The translations under genes were made by a program, and so were the position numbers. 64,000 bases of DNA from Dimorphilus gyrociliatus (taxonomy: Eukaryota; Animalia; Annelida), in NCBI GenBank assembly GCA_904063045.1, contig CAJFCJ010000012.1, forward strand, positions 2,170,001-2,234,000, read 5' to 3'. Position 1 is the stretch's first letter. Each line of letters begins with the position of its first letter. Below, piece by piece: positions 43,665-64,000 of this stretch. The notes beneath the pieces are model-generated. The model was not told the DNA's origin, did no database searches, and saw only the letters and a program-made list of their open reading frames with translations.

Positions 43665-46600
43665 TCATTTAATAGGTGTTCCCTTATTCGAGCTCGATCC
43701 ATCTAAATCGTTTCTTCTTTCTTGAGGAGCATCTAAAATCATTGCTCTCCTTGCTGAATAAACTCGATGGTCTTGATCGGAAACGGAATTTGTATTTGAT
43801 CGTTTACTTAGATCTATGACGCCCTCTGGTGTTTCTCGAACTTCTTCTTCAGGTTCGCAGCATGCGCATCTTATTTTCTCTGATCCTTCCGAAGTTGTTG
43901 AAACTGATTTACGCCGCTCTGTATGTTTTTCAATTAGATTTTTGAAGGCTTCCGACGGTATAGGTATAGGTATTGGAACTGGAATCGGGAAGAGAAATGG
44001 CATAGGTACAAGTAGTGTACTCGCTGGTATAATAGGAGGTGGGGGAGGAAGTGGAAGTGGAAGAGGTGGAGGTGCTGGTAGAACAGGGAGGGTCCTAATT
44101 TCTTGTTTTTGTCCTTCTTTCGGCTTAATAGTCGGAAGTGGTGTATGCATATCTTGATCACGCATCTGAATAGATTTAAAGTTAGCCTTCCTTGTAATGT
44201 TTTATAATTATTACTCATTTGTTCAATATTACAGACCTTTAGTCTTCTTATATATTCTCGATCGGTCAGTCTGGCACGTTTCTCGGCTAGAACTTTACTA
44301 TTCCTTTCTGAACTTGCTTCTCTCTTTCGTGACGAACCTTTTGCATTTGAAGCGGTTCTATTCCATAATTCCGGAGTAATAATAATTCTATCGTCCTTTT
44401 GCGGTTCAGCTTTATCCTCTTTGGCCGAATTTAAATGTTCTTCTGTTTCACGACAAAATATGTTCATTTTATATTGATTTAGGCAAGATTCAGAGCAAAA
44501 TTGCAATTGTCCATCACATAAATCAACTTTGCAATGGGCCGATTTGGCTCTATGGCACCAATCACAACTTTTCGTTCGCCTAACGCGGTCATCATCTGAA
44601 TTCTTACGTGTTCGACCTGAATAAGAGAAAATTCTCGTTATCGCCTAAAGATTCTGTTTTATTCCTGCCTCTTTTTTAAAGCCCAAACAAGTAAAAACAA
44701 GAATGACCTAACTTTTGTTGACAATGTAAGGAAAGAGTTTACTAGGAAAATGATTCTTTAATAGCAAATGAAATTTAGTAGCTAGCTGACTTATCTGAAT
44801 GGAATAACAGAGCAAATAAGCTATCATACATTAAAATAAGGACGAAGAGAAATGAGATAGTAATGAGACCGAGAGAGAGAGAGAGAGAAAGAGCGATTGC
44901 AGGTACAGTATATACTGTATATACATATATATTCGTATATACGTGCCAGGGATTTATTCCAGAAAAAGATGGATAGAAAAAGAGAATAATAGAATTGAGA
45001 TAGTAGCAAAAGTTGCAAGCATTTTCTTTCTGAAGTAAATTCTTTATACAATATTCAACCGGAAAATAATTTGGAAAGGAGGAAACGGAAATGTTGAAAG
45101 GAAAGTAATAAAATAATATAGGTATTAAATGAATTTTTAGTAGATTGGAAGAATCGATTAAATATATATTGCAGCTATTGAACAGTTCATCCCTTTGTTT
45201 TGTTAGCATGGTGTCTTCGTAAACTGAAAAAAGTTCACTTTCATGATAAATTAATTTGTCACCTCTGCTCTAGTTTCGGGATTGTGTTCGTACTAGAGAA
45301 TACTTATATCTTAATTTGTTTTCTTCTAGAATTATTTGAAAGGATTAAAGGATTTAATAAATAAATAGATACACTATCTGAAACAAACTGGGAAAAAAAT
45401 CAATGAAGACGACGCCCGCTGACGCCGGAGATCGAATTACTCTATTTAGAAAAGCGTCTACGATTTCAAGACCGCTTATTGGAAAAAGTATACGGCTACG
45501 CCAACCTCGATATTTTTACCAACAGATCTGGATTTTCGACGCTTTAAAACAAAACTGTTAAGAGACTCAGGGTCAGGTCACGTGATATCGTTATACAATA
45601 CGATTGGCTAATTAAGCGTCACGTGACGCAAAAACGCACTATTTGAATTGAGGCCTAGAAGGCCCCCGGTGAAAATGGATTTTAGGGATCGGATTTCGGC
45701 GCGTTCGAATTCGATTAAATGCATAGGGATTTTTTTCATATATATAAATAATATATTATATACATATATAGTAAATATGTATGTAAATTTCCTTATTCTT
45801 TGTCTTAGATTAGTCAAATATGCATTTCTTGACTCATAACTTAACTAATTAACTTATTAATTAATAAATTAAAAATCTTGAATTTAATAAATAATTCTTT
45901 CATTTATATTTTCTTAAATTTACTAAAAAGTTTGTAAAGTTTTCAAAAACCTAGGCAGGAAAAGCGAAAAAAGTTCAATAAGTAACTGGTATCAAATTGA
46001 TACAAACTCGCCAAAACAGCTTCAATTTCAATAAAAAAAAAACTATTAAATATAAGAAACACTTGATGAAATTTATATGTATCCAATGTGCAAATTTAGA
46101 TGTATAAAGTGAAATTCAAATATACTATATATATATATATATATATTTATATAATGTATATGCAAATTATTTTACAGGCACTTTATACTTTTAAAATTGT
46201 AAAGTGAATAATACCATTTGAAAAAAGAAAATATGCATCTTTAATTACAAGAAACTTGTAGAAACGGTTTTTAACCTAGATGAATATTGATCATGATAAT
46301 TCAAAACGTAAGCTCATCTTCACGACTTCAGACCGTTTGACTTAGCTCTGCAGAAATCGATCACGACTTCTTGTATTTTAATTGAAGATCGTGCAAGGAA
46401 AATATCTCTGATTTGGGCATGTTTATTAAGCACGTTAATCGTGTAGCTAGTATTGTTTTTCGTTAAACAATTTGATATAATTCCGGTCAAAAATATCCGC
46501 CCCAAAACAAAAAGAAAATAAAGAATGTATATCTAATATCTAGGCTTCTCCTCTTTACTTTTATTCTCTTTCATCTTTAAAGAAATACATAAATATTATC

Positions 46601-49359
46601 AACAGGAAAAAATAAAAAAAATTGGAAAGACACGTGACTACAATGTAGTCGGCGATGTTTATCTCGCCTCCGGCTCTTTTATACAGTATACTTGATCCCG
46701 TGTTGCACATCTATACAGAACTACTGGCTCGAAATATGAACCAAGTTGAAAACATACTATATATAATCCAACTCTTTTATCCCATCTTCTAACCTTAATA
46801 CAGTATTACCTTAGACTCTTTGAGCTTTATCTTTTTTTCATCATACTTCATTTGATAGAAGATAAATTAATAAGATGAGAAAAGTCTAATAAGAAAATGT
46901 GAACAAAATCGTTGGAAGAAAAGGAGAAGGAGAAGTAATAGTAGTAGTTATAGGAGTATTAGTAGAATAGGAATAGGTAGAGGAGGAGGAGGAGGAGGAG
47001 GAGGATTTTATAATGTTAAAAATGAGTCCTACTGAGGTTAATCGACAAATTTGACATATATTTTTGTCTGATTCTATCTATCTATATATCTCTTTGAAAC
47101 AAGACATTGAAAAGTTTCCGTATTAAGTTTCTTCTATAACAAAGAATTAAAGAAACAACGCAATAAGTAAGACGAATATCTTTAATTATAATAAACTTTT
47201 TTATGACTGTTATAAGATTCCCAATCAAATTTGAAGTTTTTTTAGAAAATTGAGATTAAAAGCGAAAATAAAAAGAAACAAGTCTCTTTTGCACAGATAA
47301 AGATGTCGAAAGGATAAAAGATTCTGCTTTAAATCTTCCCTTATTATACCCTCTCATCAAGTGTTATCTAATTACACAAATGACCTTTAACTCACCTTCG
47401 TTCTCTTGCTTATCAGCTGCATCGTAACCGTACCATTTTGCCAGTAATTCGTTCATAGTCGTCTCGGCATAATCCTATTTTTTAAATAAAAAAACGACTA
47501 TCATTCTAAAAAGGAATTCTCCAGAAACCGAATCCGGCATTGTACAGTGCCTATTAAATACGTAATACGAGCGTAGCGTATCTGTAAATATACGCTTTGT
47601 AATCCTAAACGATGGTTTCAAATTTCAATAAAATATATAAAAGCAAGCCGACCAGAGGATATATTTCTCTATTGCGCATGCGTAGACTTATATAAGCCCT
47701 GCCTAACTGTAAACTATACACGGTACTGAACGTTATCGCGTTACGTTATCTAGATACGTTAGCACATATGTTCGATTACTTCTTGCTCGTTTCGACTATC
47801 GGACGTTTCTTTTTAGCCTTATCAAAAGTTTCTCTTACCAATACCTCTTCTCCTTTACGCCCTTTTACTCCCAAAGCTCCAACCCCCTCCTCATCCTTCA
47901 ATCATCAACGCCATCTAGATTAGAAGTAAATAGCCTGATAATTCGCGTACTATGCGCTCTATATTTCACGAAACAAGTACTGAACCAAGAAAACAGTTTT
48001 AGAAAGATGCGAGTTGTAGTTTGAGAACCAATAAAAAAGAGGTTATAGGCCGAAAAGCAACATCTAACCTCTTCTTTTAAAAACAGCAAAATATTTGCAT
48101 TTTTAAACATTCTTTGCTTTAAAATGTATGTAAAGCCGAAAAATCTATATTTATTAAGACAAATATTTTAACTATAAACCTTATCTTACAAAGTAAAAAG
48201 AAAATGATATTAAATTATCAAAATTCCATTCTTTCGCTTATTTTTCAACTTTTTTAATTGAAGGAGAAAGGGAAGAAAGACGTAACTTCCTAATTATATC
48301 CATAAATATATATATCTATGTATATGTGCGTATCTATTTATATTGTTTATTATATGGTAAATGTATATACGGTATACTTATTTAGGGGTAATGAACAGTT
48401 TTGTATCCAACTATTAAGAATCTCCTAATGATTGCAGTACACTTTCTTTTCCAGTTTTTTGTGCGTTATTATCATTAGCATATAGTACATATATTTAAAT
48501 ATTATATTTATGCTAATAATACCAATAATAAGCCTAATAGTCTTTCGATAGAAGAGCTACTTATTTATTAAATCATTAAAAATGATAAAATATCTCTTTT
48601 ATTAAAATGAACAGAGTAAAAAGGGAAAGATCTTGGTAAGAAGACAGGTTTCCATTTTACTCTCTATTATTTAACTATTTAATACTATTTGTTTTCTTTT
48701 ATATAAGAAATTAAATTAATATCTGCTTCTTTCGGTAAATCAAAACATTCTCTTTTAGGGGGAATATCTTTCAATAGAAATTATTATTAGCGCCATCTGT
48801 AATTGAAATAAGCAGCGCTCTTTTTTCGGTTGGGAACGAATACAGGGAAAATGCGCTTGTAATTTGTGAATGAAAATCATCTTAAAAAGCATAACATTTG
48901 ATTTAAAAAGATAACTTTCACAAACTAGAATCCCTTACTTATTCTTTCAAGTTGTAATATCTCTTCTCTATATATCTTCAATACACGCGGAATTGTTGCA
49001 TAAAAGCCTATTTTAATTAGTTTTTTACTAGGAAATTTAATAGTGGAAATAGAAAAAGACTGTTCAAATTACCTTGATATCGTCCTGGCCTCCAGATTCT
49101 TGCTTAACCTTGAGTTTTTTGGCAGACATCTATTTAGTTTACTTGAAAAGATAAAGTGAAGAGTATACTGTGCCACAAACTCCCTCAGACTGAGCATATT
49201 GACTAGCAACCGGAGCTTGCTGCTAACCTGATACGTCGGATCGGGTGTCGACTGCACGAGCGCCGCTCTTCTTTTGTTGCTGCACCTTCTCATCCGATTC
49301 AGGCTAGCAGAGTTGGGATTTTTGGTGGGAATCTGTATTTTTTTCATTTTGTTTTTCAT
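43665..49359 (-). CDS. SOBP: Sine oculis-binding protein homolog (short form, about 340-380 aa)
   Basis: Exons [49359-49228, possibly UTR], 49129-49073 (MSAKKLKVKQESGGQDDIK), 47474-47396 (DYAETTMNELLAKWYGYD), 44616-44237 (FCS finger CDWC...QFCSESCLNQYKMNIF), 44165-43665 (PFLFPIPVPIPIPIP, GVIDLSKR, YSARRAMILD). All phases are compatible. Confidence 0.92.
45571..45629. promoter_or_regulatory. Promoter-like island inside a SOBP intron: E-box, CCAAT, 14-bp palindrome GCGTCACGTGACGC
   Basis: ggtcacgtga 45576-45585, gattgg near 45602, gcgtcacgtgacgc 45616-45629, within a CpG-rich stretch of about 45400-45720. Confidence 0.55.
46981..47005. repeat. (AGG)n trinucleotide repeat in a SOBP intron
   Basis: Read directly. 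Confidence 0.9.
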
Positions 49360-50922
49360 TTTTTAACGTCCGTTCTGCAATCTCTTCTTTCCCTTGGTGC
49401 CATAAGCCTATCTCTCGTTCAAACCTTTTAAGTAGCTATTTACTTGTTTAACTTTTTTCTCTGCTCTTCTTCTATAGTTTCTTTCGCTCACTCCCTCACT
49501 CACTCTCTCTCTCTCTCTCTTTCCCTTCCTCTCTATCTCTCTATCTATCTCTCTCGCTATCCCTCTTCTTACTCACTCTCTCTCTCTCTCTCTCTCTTAC
49601 TCTCTCAATCTTTCGCTACACATATACAGTGTATATATATATATACATATCAAATATAAATATATAGCATTCTATATATCTAATACATATATATGTCTTA
49701 TTGTCTTCTTTTGCTCCCACTCATTCTCTATACGTATCTATTTGTTAATTATTTGTTAAGACATTTTTTCGTAAATCTTACTCCTCCCATCTTCTATCTA
49801 TGTCACGTCTACCCCTTTCTACATAAGTTCGCCTGCCCTTTGTGCTTCTCTCCCATATTTCCTAATCGTGTTACTTCTACTGAATCCTCATCTTTCAATA
49901 AAATGTGTTCAAGGTCAGAATACATGGCCAAATAATTTTCTCTCTTTGATAATTGGGCTAAGATTTAAATTGTTGTGCAGAATGCATCTCTATACACAAG
50001 CTACCGATATATTATTTCCTTAATTCAAGGGGGATGGTCATTCAACTGAACTGGTAAAGACGGCTGTTCCTCTGGCCTGAATGGTTTAATAAAACATCTG
50101 CTTTCTCCGTCCATCCCGCCTTCTGGCGCCATCTATCCAAGGTAAGAAAACCCTTGTTGTTATATTGCCCCTGATCCTTGAGGATACATGGAAAAAAATT
50201 ATAAAATTGTTAGGCAGATGAATTAGATAGAGATCAAAGATCGTCTTTGAATTCTCCTTTCTTTACAATAGTATAGTTCGATTCTTTTTGGATATCGGAT
50301 ATCGGATTTCTAGCAGTTTATATTGTGTCGACTGGCCTTAATCAGTGATTAATAAAAAAAAGCAGTTGAATAATTCTTGTTATTGTAATAGTTGTAATTT
50401 TAGCGGGGTACATCTTACTATTACATTACTTTCACAAATTTTCTTAACCGATAGATGTCAGGATTAACAATTACAAGAGGGCGCAATACAAATAAATATC
50501 CCATTCTTGAATATCCTCGTTAGCAACAGAAGATCAATAATCGATGGGGTTTTGGATATATTCTCAGCGATAGGCTTAAAGTCTTCTGTCCAATTGAATT
50601 ATTTATAGGCTTGAACATGCGATCTCTATTTGTTGATATTTTGTGATCAAGCCTTGAATTTGCGCTGAGTAAAAAGTATTAAACAAGGTCAAGATTTTGC
50701 TGTTAGTGAGTAAAGTTGACAGTTTTGCAATGGCCATTTGTTGCAAGTAAGAAAGCTGAAAATTAAAATACTTTACCAAAATTGTGACTGCAATAGGAGA
50801 GAAGAGAAGATCCTTAGTAAGAGAGAAAAACTGAAAATCAAATTGGAAAGAGCTGATCACCAAATTTCTTCCCTAAAATAGAAGGATACTTTTAGTTCTA
50901 GTCATCTAATGGGACTTGTGAA

Positions 50923-50974
50923 ATGGGTTGTGGTTCATCAATTAGTTATGGTAAAGCCATTTTTTTAATGATAG

Positions 50975-51006
<32 letters not shown>

Positions 51007-51592
51007 TTATATATTTGTAACTATTTATAAAGATTAATATATTTCAGAACTTTTCAATATATTCCAAATCTTAATCACTGTATCAATCCTTTTATAATGA
51101 CTTTTTTATGACTTTGTTTTGAAATATCATATCCGTTATCCAGATCCTAATGAAATGTACGGTAAAAAGGAAAGAATACCCTTCGAAAACGTGAAAACTG
51201 AGGAAGAGACGGCTAAGGAAAAAAAAGATAATGACCAAAAAAGTAAAAAAGATGAAGAAAACAAAGGGAATAGTTCAAATTTAGAAAAAAATAGAGATAA
51301 AAAGTCCATATTGAAAGGTGATTTGTCTCTCAGAAATGAAGCTAAGATAAATCGACGAAAGAGTCGAGATCTTCGGCTTAGGAATTGTGAAAACAGAGCT
51401 AAGGTAATATAATTTATGCATAATTTTTATTTATAGATCTTGTATTAACAATTCTTTTTTTAAAATCTATAATTAATATAGATGCTAGTTGATCAATACT
51501 ACGAAGAGAGCGAACGGTTCTCTGTTTCAAATTCAAGAGCAACATCTCGAGTTGAACGAGTTGAAGATATATCTATTCAATCTAACTCTTAG
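50923..51592 (+). CDS. Uncharacterised 132-aa hydrophilic protein with MGCGSS dual-acylation N-terminus
   Basis: Exons 50923-50950 (MGCGSSISY-), 51144-51403 and 51482-51592 join in frame at phase 1 and phase 0 GT-AG junctions. A probable non-coding first exon ends at the caag|gtaaga donor at 50141. Confidence 0.75.
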
Positions 51593-53825
51593 TATACGTA
51601 AACAATAAAATTAATCAGTTTAACTTGTTCATAACATTATTATAAACGTTTATACCGGTTTTATATCTTGTACAGTTGTTTTTATATGTATTTTCTTTCC
51701 CAATCATATGATTCTAAATGATGATACATATTTTATATCTGAATTTTCCTTTAATTTATTCAAGATTTCTTTTTTTCGCAAGCTTTCGTTAGAGATTAAT
51801 AATAACTGATTTGCAGGGTGAATATTCTTATAAGGGCGAGAAGGGATTGAACTAAAGCTATGGTAGAGCTAATAATAAACTTAGTGCGATATAAAAACGT
51901 GATTAAGACAAACAAATGTCCTTTTTCTATTTCTAAAAAACATATATCTCTTCTGTCCAGTAAAGTAGTAAATATATAATAATAGAGACAATGATCTCTC
52001 ATAATAGTTGAAGTCTTCTGGTAATACAATAACCAATTTAAATGACTCAGATACTAATAAAAAGTAAGTAGTTAGTATGTGTGCATAATATCTGTAATTA
52101 TTTCGTATATTATTTTACTATATAATATAGGCAAAGAATAATTCATTTAAGCCGGATCAGTTCAAGTAAGCATCCTTGTGCTTTAAAGGTTAACAGTATT
52201 AAATAACAAAGCTTTTTAACTGGAATAAACGTAATACGGGACTGTTTATATAGCGCTCTTATATTTCGGTATACGATATTAAAAAAATGATAAAAATAAG
52301 TTATCTTCCTATAATACAGTTTCTGCAAAGTGCAATGAATCGCTTATATAAAAGTTTAATCAGATATTATAGTTTTTAAATAGTATACAAAAAGAACAAA
52401 CTCACGACTTCTTGTTCTAACTTCCTTATTTTAAGAAAGAAGTTTTACGATTTTAGTAAATTACAGAAATTTGCTTTAATTCCTTTTGAAATCTTTTAGC
52501 AAAGGCTTTTTAAGTTAATAATGTCGCGGTAATCCCTGTAGGTTATTTCCTACTGTTTCTTTAGCTTATACATTTACGAAAGAATTCAGAAATCGAAAAG
52601 TAAGAGAGACAGAGAGAGAACACCGGGATTAGAGACTTACTATTAGAGAAAGAGGAAACTACACAGATAGACATACATTGAGAGAAGAAGAGATTTAGTA
52701 GGAAAACAAACAAAGGAAAAGAGAACTAAAAGTTTATTTTCTCTGTTCCTTTTTGTGTCTCTGTCATTCTTAGTTTTCTAGTTTTCTTATTTGTACACTC
52801 TCTCTTTCTCTCCCTCTCCTTTCTTCACCCTACTTTACATAAACCTTTAATTAAAAAAAAGCGTTTTATTACGAATGAATAGAGAGAATTCTTGCCAAGG
52901 TCTTGACTACTATGAGTGCTTTATTTCATGGAAAATGACAAAGAATAGCGTAACATACTGCTATGTTAAATAACGTTTATTTACACAATCGATAATTTAA
53001 TTTAAGAATGTGTGCCAGAAGGCGTACGGTAACTACTTCATATTTGTTTAAGATATTTTGTAATCAAGTGTATTACATTAACCTCCAAAATATTTTTATT
53101 CATTTGTTCAAGTACAGAGGGCGCTTTGTTATTATTAGCCACCACAAAGTAAACTACAATGGAAGTGTTTTATTTTTCTTATAGATAATAGTACAAATAT
53201 TACTGATAATAATGTTCGTTCGTGGATCATACATATATATATATATACTGTACATATACAATATGTACAGTATATACATAAATTATCGAAATTAACTCTC
53301 TCTTCTTCATTATTGGACATTCGATCCTTATTATATATCCTTATATGACTTTTATCTTTTAATTGCATGAATTTGTTTAAAATTGCAATATGATCTATTT
53401 ATTTATTACACTAATAACATCTAGCATTAGAAAAAGTGAACAGGATAGTGACCTTAATGCTTTAAATATATAGTTTTGACCAAAATTAATATTAGGAAAT
53501 TGGATACTATTTTTATGAATAAAGTAAATGTATAGGTGTACTCGAGTTGTATTTCAATTATCTTAAATCGCCAGTAAAGTGATCATCTAATTAGGTTATT
53601 AGAGCAGACATTATTTTAATCATTTATCACTTATGGAATAGTAAGAAGGGTCGATTATAGATATAATTATGTAAATGAATTAATAGAATGAAATTACTGC
53701 GAATTCTGTTTCAAGAGTTTCATTTCAAGGTCAATAAATTTGCTACGGAAAATGTATATAAATGTAAAAAACCCATCTGTGCACAGTACCATTGTCATTT
53801 GGCAGCAAAAACTACAACTTTGAAA

Positions 53826-54115
53826 ATGAACAGCAAATCAACTAAAACTCTAATTCTACTTTTTTCACTTTGTTTGGTAAAGTTCTTTCTTTTAGTTTCT
53901 GTTGAAATACTTTTTATATTCTTCTTTATTTTTAACAGTTTGGAATGATATCAACAGTTGAAGGAAGCATTCAGGGTGTAACTTGTCATTCGCAACAGGA
54001 TTGTGCAGCTGATCCAAAAATGGCATGTGTATCCTGCGGTAATTATAATTTTGGTATCTGTTGGAAACTTTCCCAAGCAAATTTCAAAGATGGCTGCGGA
54101 TTGTATAATAAGTAA
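53826..54115 (+). CDS. Secreted six-cysteine peptide precursor, 75 aa, family unrecognised
   Basis: Exon 53826-53876, 62-nt GT-AG intron, exon 53939-54115: MNSKSTKTLILLFSLCLFGMISTVEG / SIQGVTCHSQQDCAADPKMACVSCGNYNFGICWKLSQANFKDGCGLYNK*. TATATAAA at about 53755, AATAAA at 54128-54133. Confidence 0.8.
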
Positions 54116-55011
54116 ATATTAGCAGATAATAAAGAATTGGTATATTTCTTCCGTATTTCAATCTTCTATCAATAATCTTGGTCTGACATAGATCAATTAG
54201 AAAAAATATTATCCCTTTTAAAAAGTAATACACATATATGCAAACTGTTGTTGTAATAATTTGAATAAAAAACTCCTATTAGACTTTACATTTGCTACCC
54301 TTTTCTTTACAAATCTATTTCAATTAATAATCTCCGGCTAAAGTAGAATTTTCAACAAAAATCTTTTTATAGTTATTTTTAAGTAACTTAATTATTTTTT
54401 TCTTTATTTTTTTGTTAGTTTTGTTGATATAAATAGAAAATAATTCTTTATTTTTAAAACTATTAAGCTTTTTGCCATAAAGTTTTTATCCCTCTCTTTT
54501 TTTTTTCAAATAGATTACACCGTTAACTTATGTTACAAACATATCTATTTATAATAAAGATAGCATCGGATTCTTTCAATTTTATTTCGCATCACAATTA
54601 CTTTGCATTTATGATATTATCTTTAAAAAAATGTAATGATTATAGGCTAATAGTTAACTTGTTGTACGCTATCTCTATTATTAGTACAGTATATACTTTT
54701 ATTATAGTACAAAATAAGAGATAAACTTTGGAGAGGAATGTTAAAAATTCTTCCCTCAAAATTTGTATTAATAAAATAACGATTAACATGAAAAAAGTTG
54801 AATATTAGATAAGAAGTGAAAGAGAATAAAAGGAATTAGTTGGGAAAATATTCTTCTTTCATATTCAAAAATTGAATAAAAGGAAATAAGAGCACCAGTT
54901 TCCAAAACAGAAAGAGAAAAAAAAACAATTAACAAAATTTTATGAATAGGTTAGCTCGTTAATTGCTAAAATATTCGATTCTTTGGCAAGTTTTTACTCG
55001 GCTATTAAACA

Positions 55012-55178: not shown

Positions 55179-56671
55179 CTAATCCAAACCCAATTTTCTG
55201 TAGCTGCTATTCGTTGATGACAATACCTTTAAAGATTCGTCAACATGAAATGAGTTTGTATCAGTCATTTTCATAATTGTTTCACGATGATTTAATATAT
55301 CTTGCTTGAATTTTTCTGTTTCGATAAATAGACATTTAACAATTTGTTGATTGAATGATTAAAATTAACTCTAACCAGTCAAATCCTTGAAAGTTCCATT
55401 TGCCTTTGAGGAATCTTCGTCGGGTAGTAATTCTGCAGGAAGTATCTCTCGCGGTACTTCTCGATCGTATAGACTCTCTAGAGTATTGTGGCGAACTATC
55501 CTTTTGAAAAATTTTCCGGGATCGAGAGGTTTCAGGATTGATACAAAAGAATCAACTATTAGGTTATAGTTGATAAGATGCACTGCCTTAAATCTCACAG
55601 GTACGCATCCCTAAAGAAATGGAATAGGCTTAAAAAACAGACTAGGGGGTGTGGTCATGAGGGCGGGGGGGGGGGGAAGTAGGGTGGGGGTTAAGAAGAA
55701 AAAAATAGCAAAATTTTACAGAGAAAGAAAGAAAGAAAAAGAGAGAGATTATAGATTAAATGACTATTTATGTATGTTCTTTCGTCATAGAGGGGCAGAA
55801 AGGAATTTCCAGCTTTTCTTAGCATTGCCAAAGCATAGAAATAATATGTATTTCAAGATTATAAATTTTGCAAGTCTCGTAAGTTAATGTAACCAACAAT
55901 ACTATGGAATTTCGTCTTCTTTTAATACTATAGAAAATATTTATATAACACTTTTCTTTTACCTACAAAGGCCAAACAAATTGCGAGAATTGACCTTGAC
56001 ATTTTACAAGCAAAAATGTAACTGTCCTAGATTTCTAATCATTTAAACTACTTCTTTTTATTCCTGTTACTTACCATTATATTTTTACTAATCATTTTTT
56101 TTTTATCCATGTCTATAAACATAAATCTTTTCCACGTATAATCTTCTAAATCCATGATAAAGACGGTACCTCTAATTTGTGTTCGCTCCGAACTCATCCA
56201 AGTCCATATTCCCGCAATCATTAAGGCTCGTAAAAGATGTGCTGAGGTATAATTTGTTCCTGAAGTATCTAATAGTCCCATCTTTATGTAAAAAACTTGA
56301 CTCTTATTCTTATCCAATCCTAATGGAACCATGAAGCCAGTATTAAACAAATATTGAACTTGCTCCTCATTAGGGTCTAAATTGGCAAAATAGTCAGGAT
56401 AATTTTGAAATAAAGATGAGTAGGTCTCAATTTTTTTTCTAGCCTTAATTTGAGAAAATTTGGCTTGCCTTAAGAAAGGTAGAAGGAAATCTGTTCGTAA
56501 TGGACATTTTATATATTCTGTGTCCTGTATCCAATCACTTAAACATTGAAGAGCTGTCAAACGATCAGATGGTAATTCATTCAATTCGGCTTTAGCTATT
56601 TCTTCATCGTCTGCATCCAATGAACAATTATAATCATTGCGAACGAATCGTCTAGGTTTATTTTTCGCCAT
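55179..56671 (-). CDS. CRAL-TRIO lipid-binding protein (alpha-tocopherol transfer protein/clavesin-like), 322 aa
   Basis: Exons 56671-56075, 55610-55376, 55315-55179. AKAELNE, FLLPFLRQAKFS, QIRGTVFIMDL, PVRFKAVHLIN, ILPAE and the typical C-terminal SYRKLGLD*. Confidence 0.93.
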
Positions 56672-57426
56672 TCCTGCGAAAGTTCGTTTGAACGGTGGAA
56701 ACAGGCCTTTATTTATTAATAGCTTTTCAATAGATAGAAAAAAAATGCTATTTTATATATTAAAATAAGTTAATATTATGTAGCATACCTCAAATAACAA
56801 AATTTGCAATAAAAAGGATTAAATATCTATTTCAATATATTCAAATAACTTTCAATTTGATTGAAAATATCAAATAGTCTATTATTTGGCCTCTATTTAT
56901 TGTCTTGAACTTATTGATTGTACACAACACATCGCTGTGCTGACATCTATAGGAGAACAGTAACATTGTTTCTTTGACTATTGACATTTTAATATGAGTA
57001 AATGGATTCATATAGATTTTTATTCGTACAAAAGTAGGACATGGTTCCTTTATCGCAAGCTTTTAATTTTATTAGATTTTTTTTAAAAAAAAAAATTAGA
57101 AAAAGACTATTAAAGGCGTCTAAACAATAATTTAGTACAACGTAAAGAAATCAACATAAAAGCGAATGGATTAGATATAAGTAGAAAAAAATAGGCTATG
57201 TAAATAATAAATTAAAGAAATGTACTGTATTAGGTTAAAGAGTTATTATCTGTTAATCGATGTTGTACTTGTATCACTCGTTAAGGGGTTAAAAATTATC
57301 ACATATTCTTCACTGTTGATTCAAATATCAAAGGTAGATTATTTCTTTCGATTGATAAAGGAAGAGATAAGAGACAAACTCTTAAAAATCGTGTTCATTT
57401 GGACTGAAATATAAGATAAAGACGTC

Positions 57427-58860
57427 ATGAATTCTCCTCTACAATACGTGTTCTTCGTTCTCTTCGCCCTAAATAGTGAATCTTTCGCAAAAATGGTTGA
57501 ACCCTCGCAAAGTTATTGTTACTCTTCGGATATTAAACCAAACAGAAATTACGCTACGAAAACAACTTACTTCCAATCAATCAACTCCTCAAATAGTATT
57601 TTAGAAGAGTCGACCAATGATTCTAATTGTACTGTAAAATTTATCTATTATCTGAGCCGTCATGGTACTAGGCATAATGGAGATAAAGGTATACGAGAAT
57701 GGCAACAACATTTACCCAAACTCCGAGAACATATTTTAAAATTTCCCAATAAAACCCAACTTTGCCAGAAGGATATTGAAATTATCGCAAATTGGAGTTT
57801 GAGAATGAAGCCGGAAGATGATAAAGATTTGGTTGAAACCGGCAAAAGAGAACAAAAGTTTATCGCTCAGGAAATGAGAAAAAGATTCCCGGATTTCTTC
57901 GCTCAGAATGATTTATTAGAAGATTACGAATTTCGTCATTCGAAAGAGAAGAGAACCCGTGATTCGGCTCTAGCCTTTCTCGAAGGCTTGTTTGGTACGT
58001 CAAATAACGTTCAACTCACCAGATCACCCGAAAAAGATACTCTCTTACATTTCTACAAGCATTGCGATAAATATATTGAAGAAGTTCAAAATAAGCCCCG
58101 TATTGAATATGATAAATTCCTAAAGGGACCCGAGATGCAGGCAGTCATAAAAAGAGTGAACGAAAGACTGGCTTTAACAAATCCAATTGAATATAAAACA
58201 CTTGAAAGTATCTATGATAATTGTGTGTTCGAGTATGGAATTTATAATGATGCTCCGTGGTGCTCAGTTTTCCAACGGGAAGATATAAACATCATAGAAT
58301 ATGCTGAAGATATAAAATATTACTGGGAGGATTCTTATCCTCATAAGGTCACTGTGGAACAAACTTGCAAGCTAGTCTCGGATATTTGGAAACATTTACG
58401 AAATGCAAAAGAAAAGAAAGATAAAAGGAAGATTGTTGGAAGATGGGCCCATTCGGCTACTATGAATACACTCTATACAAGATTGGGATTATATAAGGAT
58501 GAGAAGCAACTACTACATAACAACTACGAGCAGCAAAAGGATAGAAGATGGAGAACAACTTTACACACTCCGATGAGCTCAAGCATCGCTTTCGTTTTAT
58601 TACAATGCAAAGATGATTTCACGGTTCGAGCTTTTCATATGGAAAAATTGATTAAACTGGACGGAATTTGCGCAGAAAAGAATTGTAAATGGAGTGAAAT
58701 TGAAGGAAAATTTAAACCTATAGCGGACAATTGCAATTTTGAAGAGATATGTAAAGTATCTAAAGGGGATTCTTCCGCAATAGCGACAAAGCCTTTTATT
58801 CAATTAATTACCCTAATGACTTTAATATCAATTTCATTACGAATGTTTTTTTATGTCTAA
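57427..58860 (+). CDS. MINPP1: Multiple inositol polyphosphate phosphatase (clade-2 histidine phosphatase), single exon, 477 aa
   Basis: Signal peptide, YATKTTY, YYLSRHGTRH, RTRDSALAFLEGLF, PWCSVF, EYAEDIKYYWEDSY, AHSAT, RRWRTT..TPMSSSIAFVLLQC, C-terminal hydrophobic tail. Confidence 0.93.
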   Translation: MNSPLQYVFFVLFALNSESFAKMVEPSQSYCYSSDIKPNRNYATKTTYFQSINSSNSILEESTNDSNCTVKFIYYLSRHGTRHNGDKGIREWQQHLPKLREHILKFPNKTQLCQKDIEIIANWSLRMKPEDDKDLVETGKREQKFIAQEMRKRFPDFFAQNDLLEDYEFRHSKEKRTRDSALAFLEGLFGTSNNVQLTRSPEKDTLLHFYKHCDKYIEEVQNKPRIEYDKFLKGPEMQAVIKRVNERLALTNPIEYKTLESIYDNCVFEYGIYNDAPWCSVFQREDINIIEYAEDIKYYWEDSYPHKVTVEQTCKLVSDIWKHLRNAKEKKDKRKIVGRWAHSATMNTLYTRLGLYKDEKQLLHNNYEQQKDRRWRTTLHTPMSSSIAFVLLQCKDDFTVRAFHMEKLIKLDGICAEKNCKWSEIEGKFKPIADNCNFEEICKVSKGDSSAIATKPFIQLITLMTLISISLRMFFYV

Positions 58861-62699: not shown

Positions 62700-63840
62700 C
62701 TATATTTTATCATTTACATTAAATGGTGATGTAGAATTTGAGGCATCGTTTAAACTTGGTATTAACTTGTTAATTTCTAATTGAATTAAATTTGTCCTCA
62801 TTAAACTTTTTGGACTAGAACATGAAAGACTGTGTGGAGAAGGAAATTTTATCTTCTCAATCTTTAGCCACTCAACCAATGGCCGAATATTCACATCACA
62901 ATACCAATTATTATGAGTTACGTCAATAAGACCGAGATTAGGCAGTGTGTCCAAGAGTTCAGCCGGTAAATTACGCAATCCGTTATAGCTCAAGTTCATT
63001 TCTTGAATGTTTGTCCATTTGGAGAGTACTGAAATATTTTTTAATAAGATTTCAGCTAATGTTGAAGAATTCGATAAACTTAAGATGAGCAATTTACTAG
63101 CATTCAAATCCAATATAAATTCATTAACTGCAATCAAGAATTATGTAAAGAGTACTGATTACTTTGCAGTTCAAATATTTATTTTAGCTTTAGTTTACCC
63201 CAGTTGATTTTTTTTTAGTTTGTAACCCCAATACTGCAAAGTTTATCATTACTCTGACTAATGTTTTGGATGGAATTCATGTGCAAAATTCTCAAGTTTG
63301 GTAATGATCCAATGGATTGTAAAGAAGATATTGGATTCAACGACAGATCGAGAATTTGTAAGTTTTTCAGATATTGGAACGTGCCTGTCCGTAAGGCCGA
63401 AATTTGATTATCCGATAAATCCAGAAGACGTAAATTACGTGCAGCATCAAAGGATTGTGACTGGATTTCGCTAATCCGATTCTTTTTTGCGTACAGACTC
63501 TCCAATTCGATCTGCAATAGCTCCTTGGATATTTTCTGTAATCTATTTCTGTTAATGTTAAGTAGTTTTGGAGAGTTTCTTGAGAAGATTGTTAATGATG
63601 TTAGATTGTTGTCATTTAAACGAACATTTAGAAAAGATATTTCAGATTCGCTTGATAAGTTTAATTGTTGAATGGAAGAGGAAGAGAGGTCTAAAACCTT
63701 TAAACTCACTGAGGGTGCAAAGTTCAAGTTTAAAATTGAATTTAACAGATTCTTTCGCAAGTTCAACCTTCTTAGATCCCTTAAACATAAAAAGGCGTCG
63801 GGAGCAATATAGTTTATTTCGTTTTCTTCGAGGTTGATCA
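62700..63840 (-). CDS. Extracellular leucine-rich-repeat protein, 3' portion (5' exons lie beyond the window)
   Basis: Exons 63840-63235 and 63127-62700 (or to a donor at 62718). Repeated LxxLxLxxNxI/L units (LRLLDLSDNQISAL, LQILDLSLNPISSL) and LRRCT NNWYCD...LVEWL...LSCSSP. Confidence 0.85.
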
Positions 63841-64000
63841 CTGATAAAAGGAAATTGGACGCTTTTAAATAAGTTACTTCAACCTTGCTAGTTGTATATA
63901 TTTGAAAAACTTTTCTAAGCTACTCTTTTAGGAAAATAAATCGTAAAGCGTCTAATTTCCTTTCAAATTTGGATTCCCAACAAATTCCTCGCTACTTAAC

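What the first reader, a model, noticed from the sequence alone, without database searches (positions are those of the whole stretch)
53826..54133. Unannotated secreted six-cysteine peptide (toxin/defensin-like)
Seen: a two-exon gene invisible to the ORF track, with a TATA-like element, a textbook signal peptide ending VEG, a 62-nt intron inside the signal sequence, a 49-aa mature region with framework C-x5-C-x7-C-x2-C-x7-C-x11-C, a stop, and AATAAA 13 nt later. Established: small secreted peptides with three disulfides and an intron in the signal region are typical of defensins, knottins and venom peptides. I cannot match this spacing to a named family. The peptide is about neutral in charge (3 Lys and 1 His versus 3 Asp), unlike most cationic antimicrobials. 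Inference: a new disulfide-rich peptide (pheromone, protease inhibitor, toxin or immune effector), flanked upstream by a CTCF-like site at 53115.
Basis: partly seen in the sequence, partly recalled or inferred. Interest (0 to 1): 0.8.

Follow-up and report, generated by a model that had tools for sequence, protein, structure and literature searches.

The report
Orphan six-cysteine peptide of miniature annelid
A small, likely unannotated two-exon gene of what is likely a tiny marine worm encodes a predicted secreted 49-residue, six-cysteine peptide with no relative found in the databases searched; its predicted knottin-like core and exposed tail suggest, untested, that it would block carboxypeptidase enzymes.

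Summary
The gene is there as described: ATG 53826, 62-nt GT-AG intron, 75-aa precursor, 49-aa mature region with Cys gaps 5-7-2-7-11. It is the only locus in the window passing my gene filter, which 1 of 40 shuffled windows passed. A run holding spliced sequence has an exact contig over most of exon 2 and the 3' UTR; the junction itself was not covered. Corrections: 4 Lys, not 3; the contig runs 102 nt past the cited AATAAA. A neighbour gene clusters with Dimorphilus gyrociliatus, a meiobenthic annelid. No homologue was found. Two single-sequence models (pLDDT 74-76) match mostly knottins, weakly (Z 2.0-2.6), over residues 4-38 only, suggesting a knottin-like core that lacks the first knottin cysteine and gains a C-terminal one. 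The five-residue tail with Tyr third from the end mirrors potato carboxypeptidase inhibitor, and the Cys spacing resembles snail NvCI, but P1 is Asn, not aliphatic. Best guess: carboxypeptidase inhibitor (about 25%). A diverged, probably broken, copy exists. Real, orphan, moderately interesting; toxin reading unsupported.

The parts
53755..53760 (+). TATA-like hexamer, 71 nt before the ATG
   Evidence: sequence; only match of TATA[AT]A in 53701-53830; function not tested
53826..53876 (+). Exon 1 coding part: n-region and most of the hydrophobic core of the predicted signal peptide (17 codons)
   Evidence: not covered by contigs in run X1
53877..53938 (+). 62-nt phase-0 GT-AG intron inside the signal-peptide coding region
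   Evidence: similar in size and GC to the 60-nt intron of the neighbour gene that a contig of X1 skips; splice junction itself not observed
53939..53965 (+). Exon 2, end of the predicted signal peptide (ends Val-Glu-Gly)
   Evidence: cleavage site inferred from the recalled -3/-1 rule
53966..54112 (+). Predicted mature 49-aa peptide, Cys at 7, 13, 21, 24, 32, 44; predicted short strand, short helix, beta-hairpin (19-24/30-34), short helix, strand
   Evidence: 53999 onward covered by an exact contig in X1
54098..54112 (+). Five-residue free C-terminal tail after the last Cys, Tyr third from the end, Asn second, Lys last: candidate carboxypeptidase-binding tail
   Evidence: sequence; comparison with tails described in PMC9966942, PMC7038206, PMC10687636; binding untested
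54113..54269 (+). Stop codon and 3' UTR with two AATAAA hexamers (54128 and 54264)
   Evidence: contig of X1 covers to 54235, past the first hexamer
53115..53124 (+). CTCF-core-like 10-mer upstream; link to this gene not shown
   Evidence: 4 matches in window, 0.55 expected; not among the 25 matches to the 14-mer at up to 3 mismatches

Best explanation
This two-exon gene encodes a 75-residue precursor whose predicted signal peptide would be cut to release a 49-residue peptide with likely three disulfides and a predicted knottin-like core, which most likely works as an inhibitor of extracellular zinc carboxypeptidases (M14A) by pushing its free C-terminal tail into the active site. Shown: the gene structure, the six-Cys framework, the tail, and an exact contig over 53999-54235 in a run that holds spliced sequence. 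Inferred: splicing at 53876/53939, secretion, cleavage after Val-Glu-Gly. Predicted: a beta-hairpin core like knottin Cys II-VI, with Cys44 supplying the third disulfide in place of knottin Cys I. Hypothesised: as in potato inhibitor PCI, the enzyme would clip the last residue (Lys49, which would suit a B-type pocket), the new terminal carboxylate (Asn48) would bind the zinc and Tyr47 would fill S2; the role would be protection of mucus, gut or egg-cocoon surfaces from microbial or own peptidases. Confidence by layer: real expressed gene 0.93; secreted disulfide peptide 0.9; knottin-like core 0.55; carboxypeptidase inhibition 0.25.
For: Gene and expression: (contig 53999-54235, 0 mismatches; the same run skips a 60-nt CT..AC intron in the minus-strand neighbour; depth figure 1737.5 against 2.8-5 for contigs on upstream non-coding stretches and 25.5 and 303.9 for the converging neighbour, so read-through from the neighbour is unlikely; the tool warns that depth is a poor measure of expression). 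Fold: 6 of 9 rows and 9 of 12 rows at Z>=2 are knottin-type chains by my recall of those entries, among them two plant peptides (2hlg; 6jic, titled a carboxypeptidase inhibitor); they align mature residues about 3-41 and mostly begin at chain residue 5-8, leaving the knottin N-terminus and query Cys44 unmatched. Tail: five residues after the last Cys with Tyr third from the end, as in PCI (Cys34, Tyr37, Val38, Gly39); papers state that such inhibitors have unrelated folds and share only the P1/P2 tail, tails of 2-5 residues and often an aromatic P2. Cys gaps 5,7,2,7,11 against 5,7,3,10,12 in snail NvCI (0.07% of random spacings come as close) and 5,7,2,7 against 5,5,2,6 for PCI Cys II-VI (0.6%). 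Such inhibitors are known from two annelids and a snail.
Against: [quoted passage not shown] No sequence match to PCI, NvCI or LCI among solved structures at E<=10. All fold matches are weak (Z<=2.9; Foldseek E>=2.6), venom knottins and agouti-related protein score the same as the plant inhibitors, and the top row is an unrelated transglutaminase stretch. The models are single-sequence (pTM 0.52) and may lean to knottins. The spacing comparisons were chosen after the fact against two families out of many; with about a hundred frameworks to choose from, a match as close as NvCI's is not rare. NvCI-like and knottin-like readings need different disulfide pairings, so they cannot both be right. 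ESM Atlas leads (0.79-0.83, below the tool's 0.9 line) point to venom knottins and cyclotides, not to inhibitors. The splice junction and the strand of the transcript were not observed.
Confidence: 0.25

Rival explanations
1. An antimicrobial or antifouling defence peptide of epidermis or mucus that acts on a specific microbial target (for example chitin or a fungal membrane lipid) rather than by cationic membrane lysis.
For: Small, likely secreted, six Cys, knottin-like model; well represented in run X1; a diverged second copy fits the birth-and-death pattern of immune peptides (general knowledge). PCI itself has antifungal activity (PMC10687636 passage), so this overlaps with the best explanation.
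Against: Net charge about +0.5; no CxxxC/CxC defensin motifs; no Pfam defensin, macin or chitin-binding match.
Confidence: 0.25
2. A secreted signalling ligand or pheromone (agouti-, prokineticin- or astakine-like use of a cystine-stabilised core), possibly tied to reproduction in a species with dwarf males and hypodermic insemination.
For: Agouti-family chains appear among the fold matches (2kza Z 2.1; 1hyk Z 2.2); lineage-restricted sequence; glandular copulatory secretions are described for the family (10.1101/491886 passages).
Against: No dibasic processing site or amidation glycine; six Cys rather than the ten of prokineticin or agouti domains (recalled); no tissue or sex data.
Confidence: 0.17
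3. An inhibitor of serine or other endopeptidases through a surface loop, or a non-enzymatic structural or adhesive component of mucus or cocoon.
For: Knottin scaffolds often inhibit trypsin-like enzymes (general knowledge); Pro-Lys-Met in the loop between Cys13 and Cys21 could serve as P2-P1-P1'; one fold match is a knottin bound to HTRA1 (8se8, Z 2.0-2.1).
Against: No Kazal, Kunitz, antistasin or squash family match in Pfam; the loop assignment is speculation.
Confidence: 0.18
4. An ion-channel-acting toxin used in defence.
For: Venom knottins are the most numerous weak fold matches and Atlas leads.
Against: Venom peptides dominate solved knottins, so this is expected for any knottin-like model; scores are below the tools' thresholds; I found no paper on venom in this species (listings only) and recall it as a biofilm grazer.
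Confidence: 0.1
5. Not a protein-coding gene: a chance frame in a non-coding or antisense transcript.
For: No homologue; junction unobserved; codon-position bias of differences to the second copy is not significant (7 of 13 listed at third positions, p = 0.10).
Against: 1 of 40 shuffled windows passes the filter; exon 2 is 38% GC against 21-28% around it; exact contig over exon 2; Atlas recognition 2528, a level 9 in 100 shuffled proteins reach; 6 of 11 changed codons in the second copy are synonymous.
Confidence: 0.05

Closest known systems
Potato carboxypeptidase inhibitor (PCI) and related Solanaceae knottins
   Same: Six Cys; gaps 5,7,2,7 resemble PCI Cys II-VI gaps 5,5,2,6; five-residue tail after the last Cys with Tyr third from the end; weak fold matches to 2hlg and 6jic (Z 2.0-2.2).
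   Different: No counterpart of PCI Cys8; an added 11-residue segment and Cys44 before the tail; P1 Asn instead of Val; no sequence similarity; animal, not plant, so any likeness would be convergent.
Nerita versicolor carboxypeptidase inhibitor (NvCI) and NpCI, marine snails
   Same: About 50 aa, six Cys, gaps 5,7,3,10,12 against 5,7,2,7,11; central two-stranded hairpin; Tyr in the C-terminal tail; lophotrochozoan.
   Different: NvCI tail is 2 residues, here 5; NvCI pairs Cys 1-3, 2-6, 4-5, which the knottin-like model would not; no sequence match at E<=10.
Inhibitor cystine knot peptides (spider and scorpion toxins, agouti-related protein)
   Same: Predicted short strand, turn and beta-hairpin that align over about 28-35 residues at rmsd 1.9-4.3 A; Atlas leads 0.79-0.83.
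   Different: No adjacent Cys-Cys; the knottin N-terminal segment is unmatched and a C-terminal helix, strand and Cys44 are added; Z only 2.0-2.6; no Pfam or sequence match.
CS-alpha-beta defensins and macins of invertebrates
   Same: Small, secreted, disulfide-rich; a mussel defensin appears in Foldseek lists at E 6-9.
   Different: No CxxxC helix or CxC strand motif; neutral charge; matches are at noise level.

Membership tests
Small C-tail metallocarboxypeptidase inhibitors (PCI/LCI/TCI/ACI/NvCI functional class) | Free C-terminal tail of 2-5 residues after the last Cys | tested here: met
   5 residues after Cys44; range from PMC9966942 passage
Small C-tail metallocarboxypeptidase inhibitors | Aromatic residue at P2 | tested here: met
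   Tyr47, third from the end, as Tyr37 of 39 in PCI
Small C-tail metallocarboxypeptidase inhibitors | Aliphatic residue at P1 (usual, not absolute) | tested here: not met
   Asn48; rule from PMC9966942 passage
Small C-tail metallocarboxypeptidase inhibitors | Tight inhibition of an M14A carboxypeptidase | not testable with these tools
   needs an enzyme assay; no complex model was obtained
PCI family (plant knottin inhibitors) | Cys framework 8,12,18,24,27,34 in register | tested here: not met
   gaps 5,7,2,7,11 against 3,5,5,2,6; only a shifted four-gap match
NvCI family | Detectable sequence similarity to NvCI | tested here: not met
   no such chain among solved structures at E<=10; phmmer is insensitive at this length
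NvCI family | NvCI fold and Cys 1-3, 2-6, 4-5 pairing | tested here: inconclusive
   Cys gaps close; fold searches on low-depth models cannot exclude it; pairing not reported by the tools
Inhibitor cystine knot (knottin) | I-IV, II-V, III-VI disulfides forming a knot | not testable with these tools
   model coordinates and disulfides are not returned
Inhibitor cystine knot (knottin) | Consensus spacing, recalled as C-x3-7-C-x3-6-C-x0-5-C-x1-4-C-x4-13-C | tested here: not met
   in register, gap 2 (7) and gap 4 (7) exceed the recalled ranges; the consensus comes from memory
Inhibitor cystine knot (knottin) | Cystine-stabilised beta-hairpin core | tested here: inconclusive
   6 of 9 and 9 of 12 rows are knottin-type but Z is 2.0-2.6
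CS-alpha-beta defensins | CxxxC in a helix and CxC in a strand (recalled definition) | tested here: not met
   gaps are 5,7,2,7,11
Prokineticin / colipase-fold domain | Ten Cys with adjacent Cys-Cys (recalled definition) | tested here: not met
   six Cys, none adjacent
Pfam DUF5637 (PF18687) | Score at or above the gathering cut-off of 31.3 bits | tested here: not met
   15.3 bits, E 0.021

The most novel reading that the evidence does not exclude
A new, independently evolved class of metallocarboxypeptidase inhibitor from a polychaete: a knottin-like core with a permuted third disulfide (first knottin Cys lost, a C-terminal Cys gained) that presents a PCI-like five-residue tail ending in Lys, tuned to B-type carboxypeptidases; or, in the alternative pairing, the first non-gastropod relative of NvCI.
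Probability: 0.2. Interest if true: 0.62.

Novelty: new variant of a known kind. Interest (0 to 1): 0.38.

Why it matters
Natural small inhibitors of metallocarboxypeptidases are few, sit on unrelated scaffolds and share only the tail (PMC5511257 introduction); a further scaffold would be a clean case of convergence, and a Lys-ended tail would be a lead for B-type enzymes. Whatever its function, a three-disulfide framework without a database relative is a usable new miniprotein scaffold, and it shows that a well-represented transcript can be missed by annotation in a compact animal genome. If it is simply one more lineage-specific secreted cysteine-rich peptide, which is common in invertebrates, it is of modest interest.

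Tried and rejected
Own-genome search: no genome is held, so copy number could not be counted. Window-wide tblastn and blastn: no second copy in the window. Word-based protein search at 31-102 aa and at 103-2000 aa: no candidate; lengths under 31 aa were not searched. phmmer over 1.84 billion representatives: 10 hits at E<=0.001, all 426-2777-aa repeat proteins whose score is summed over 4-34 stretches; best single stretch 16.9 bits and without the six-Cys frame, so all 10 were rejected. Metagenome scan: 5 of 96 candidate stretches passed the tool's test; all 5 were rejected on translation (stops or no Cys frame). Solved structures by sequence: one PHD finger at E 0.21, then none. Foldseek: 0 of 13 and 0 of 16 matches at E<=0.001. 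NvCI and PCI themselves were not listed in the VIA searches, which shows nothing either way. Atlas: all scores under 0.9, leads only. Complex with a carboxypeptidase: no model and no verdict were obtained. Sequencing runs: one holder listed, kind not on record, no RNA holder listed; exon 1 and the junction had no contig cover, which proves nothing. Earlier findings: nothing in 3 look-ups. Literature: 8 searches listed no paper on this peptide; one search was uninformative; subscription papers and bioRxiv supplements, including the species' annotation tables, were not seen. The CTCF-like site was set aside as unlinked.

Full report
Observation. The gene described is in the sequence. Exon 1 runs from the ATG at 53826 to 53876, a 62-nt intron (GTAAAG...TAACAG) from 53877 to 53938, and exon 2 from 53939 to the TAA at 54113-54115, giving a 75-aa precursor without internal stop. 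The N-terminus has two Lys and a hydrophobic core (9-residue mean hydropathy 3.1 at residues 9-17), ending Val-Glu-Gly; SignalP was not available, so the cleavage site rests on the recalled -3/-1 rule. A filter for such genes finds this locus alone in the window and 1 start in 40 block-shuffled windows; the filter was written after seeing the gene. Exon 2 is 38% GC against 21-28% for the intron, exon 1, the upstream region and the 3' UTR. Of five AG acceptors tested, the one after 53938 gives the 75-aa product; one after 53974 would keep all six Cys in a 63-aa product, one after 53998 gives 55 aa, two give short Cys-poor frames.

Organism. A neighbouring potassium-channel exon has its best named relatives in nemerteans, molluscs, brachiopods and annelids at 60-74% identity, and its 99% identical hit shares a 90% cluster with DgyrCDS9105 of Dimorphilus gyrociliatus. 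The window is therefore likely from that miniature annelid or a very close relative. Passages of bioRxiv 10.1101/2020.05.07.078311 give a median intron of 66 bp and CTCF as the commonest motif in open chromatin, mostly at promoters, which fits the 62-nt intron and the excess of CTCF-core matches in the window (4 against 0.55). The match at 53115 lies about 640 nt from the TATA-like hexamer at 53755 and is not among the matches to the longer consensus; nothing links it to this gene.

Expression. One run holds the stretch (X1, kind not on record). It contains spliced sequence: a contig skips 55316-55375 (CT..AC), an intron of the minus-strand neighbour. A 238-nt contig matches 53999-54235 with no other letters, at a depth figure of 1737.5, against 2.8-5 for contigs on upstream non-coding stretches and 25.5 and 303.9 for the converging neighbour. 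The tool warns that contig depth is a poor measure of expression and shows no strand; still, read-through from the neighbour would not exceed the neighbour. No contig covers exon 1 or the junction, so splicing remains inferred.

A second copy. At 80% likeness a 452-nt contig of depth 8 aligns to 53925-54036 with 19 differences in 112 nt, beginning inside the intron, so it is unspliced and likely genomic. Of the 13 differences listed, 7 are at third positions (p = 0.10); 6 of 11 changed codons are synonymous, and the first Cys is lost. Read in register, its loose end shows stop codons from the fourth Cys codon on, though an indel could explain this. It is not in the window. The gene thus likely has at least one diverged, probably broken, relative; copy number could not be counted.

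Homologues. None was found. The word-based search found no candidate at 31-102 aa or at 103-2000 aa in a collection that does hold this species' annotated proteins, so the gene is likely unannotated. All 10 phmmer hits among 1.84 billion representatives are long repeat proteins with summed scores and no six-Cys frame; all 5 metagenome loci are chance. Pfam gives only DUF5637 at half its cut-off; solved structures give one PHD finger at E 0.21. The Atlas gives leads at 0.79-0.83, mostly venom knottins, conotoxins and cyclotides, all under its 0.9 line.

Fold. Two single-sequence models (49 and 46 aa; pLDDT 73.8 and 76.4, pTM 0.52) agree: short strand, short helix at 10-13, hairpin 19-24/30-34, short helix 37-40, strand 44-46. 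They are not independent. Foldseek finds nothing at E<=0.001. VIA-align over 48,161 chains lists 9 and 12 rows at Z>=2, of which 6 and 9 are knottin-type by my recall of the entries: spider and scorpion toxins, agouti-related protein, an engineered knottin, a tomato peptide and a Lycium carboxypeptidase inhibitor, Z 2.0-2.6, rmsd 1.9-4.3 A over 28-36 residues (also 2kza). The other rows are unrelated stretches, one of which tops (Z 2.9). These scores are weak. The pattern is consistent, however: the alignments cover mature residues about 3-41 and mostly start at chain residue 5-8, so query Cys7 and Cys13 likely correspond to knottin Cys II and III, knottin Cys I has no partner, and Cys44 would supply the third disulfide from a C-terminal extension. 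This is inference; the tools return no disulfide list, and an NvCI-type pairing or an in-register knot is not excluded.

Mechanism. The only specific functional clue is the C-terminus: five residues after the last Cys, with Tyr third from the end. In PCI the last Cys is 34 of 39 (PMC5877539 passage), Gly39 is clipped, the Val38 carboxylate binds the zinc (PMC7038206 passage) and Tyr37 contacts the enzyme (PMC10687636 passages). Inhibitors from potato, leech, tick, Ascaris and snail have unrelated folds and share only this P1/P2 tail (PMC5511257 introduction), 2-5 residues long, often aromatic at P2 and mostly aliphatic at P1 (PMC9966942 passages). The peptide meets tail length and P2 and fails P1 (Asn). 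Its Cys gaps (5,7,2,7,11) are close to those of snail NvCI (5,7,3,10,12) and, shifted by one, to PCI Cys II-VI (5,5,2,6); 0.07% and 0.6% of random spacings come as close, but the two families were picked after the fact from many. I therefore commit to inhibition of M14A carboxypeptidases through the tail, with the terminal Lys suiting a B-type pocket, at about 25%. An antimicrobial role is about as likely (25%) and overlaps with it; endopeptidase inhibitor or structural mucus component (18%), signalling or reproductive ligand (17%; copulatory gland secretions are described in passages of 10.1101/491886), toxin (10%) and non-coding (5%) follow. No binding model was obtained, so binding remains open.

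Known and new. It is not a member of the PCI, NvCI, defensin or prokineticin families by the features tested, and knottin membership cannot be settled. It most plausibly works like a small disulfide-stabilised inhibitor or defence peptide. Eight literature searches listed no paper on it (listings only except for the passages cited; PMC6780499 passages), and three look-ups of earlier findings were empty. Subscription papers and the genome preprint's supplements were not seen and may bear on 'unannotated'. Lineage-specific secreted cysteine-rich peptides missed by annotation are common in invertebrates (own knowledge), so the finding is real and new as a sequence but not surprising as a kind: new variant of a known kind, interest 0.38; 0.62 if it proves a further convergent carboxypeptidase-inhibitor scaffold (probability about 0.2).

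Noticed in passing
run X1 contig laid on window:53925-54036: Unspliced, low-depth (8) 452-nt contig with 19 differences in 112 nt: a diverged copy of the gene outside the window that has lost the first Cys and, read in register, shows stops from the fourth Cys codon; probably a broken paralogue.
   Followed up: partly
   Followed up: no
window:15980, 48790, 50126, 53115: Four exact CTCF-core 10-mers against 0.55 expected; three lie in 48790-53124, a stretch without recognisable coding exons.
   Followed up: partly
window:45300-53800: About 8.5 kb in which the longest stop-to-stop frames are about 100 aa and none looks like a known exon, long for so gene-dense a window.
   Followed up: no
window:55058-56752 (-): Converging neighbour that reads like a CRAL-TRIO/alpha-tocopherol-transfer-type gene (name recalled from the translation); its 60-nt intron 55316-55375 is skipped in X1.
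   Followed up: partly
window:13514-20729: Two divergently oriented flavin-monooxygenase-like genes followed by a cytochrome P450-like gene: a small detoxification cluster (names recalled from translations, not searched).
   Followed up: no
window:21966-25757 (+): Two-pore potassium channel KCNK12/13-like gene, used here for taxonomic placement.
   Followed up: yes
window:2219-6569, 43665-44644, 57415-58860, 62700-63919: Frames that read like a GPCR, a collagen, a sine-oculis-binding-protein-like gene, a single-frame 481-aa histidine-phosphatase (MINPP1-like) and a leucine-rich-repeat protein (names recalled from translations, not searched).
   Followed up: no
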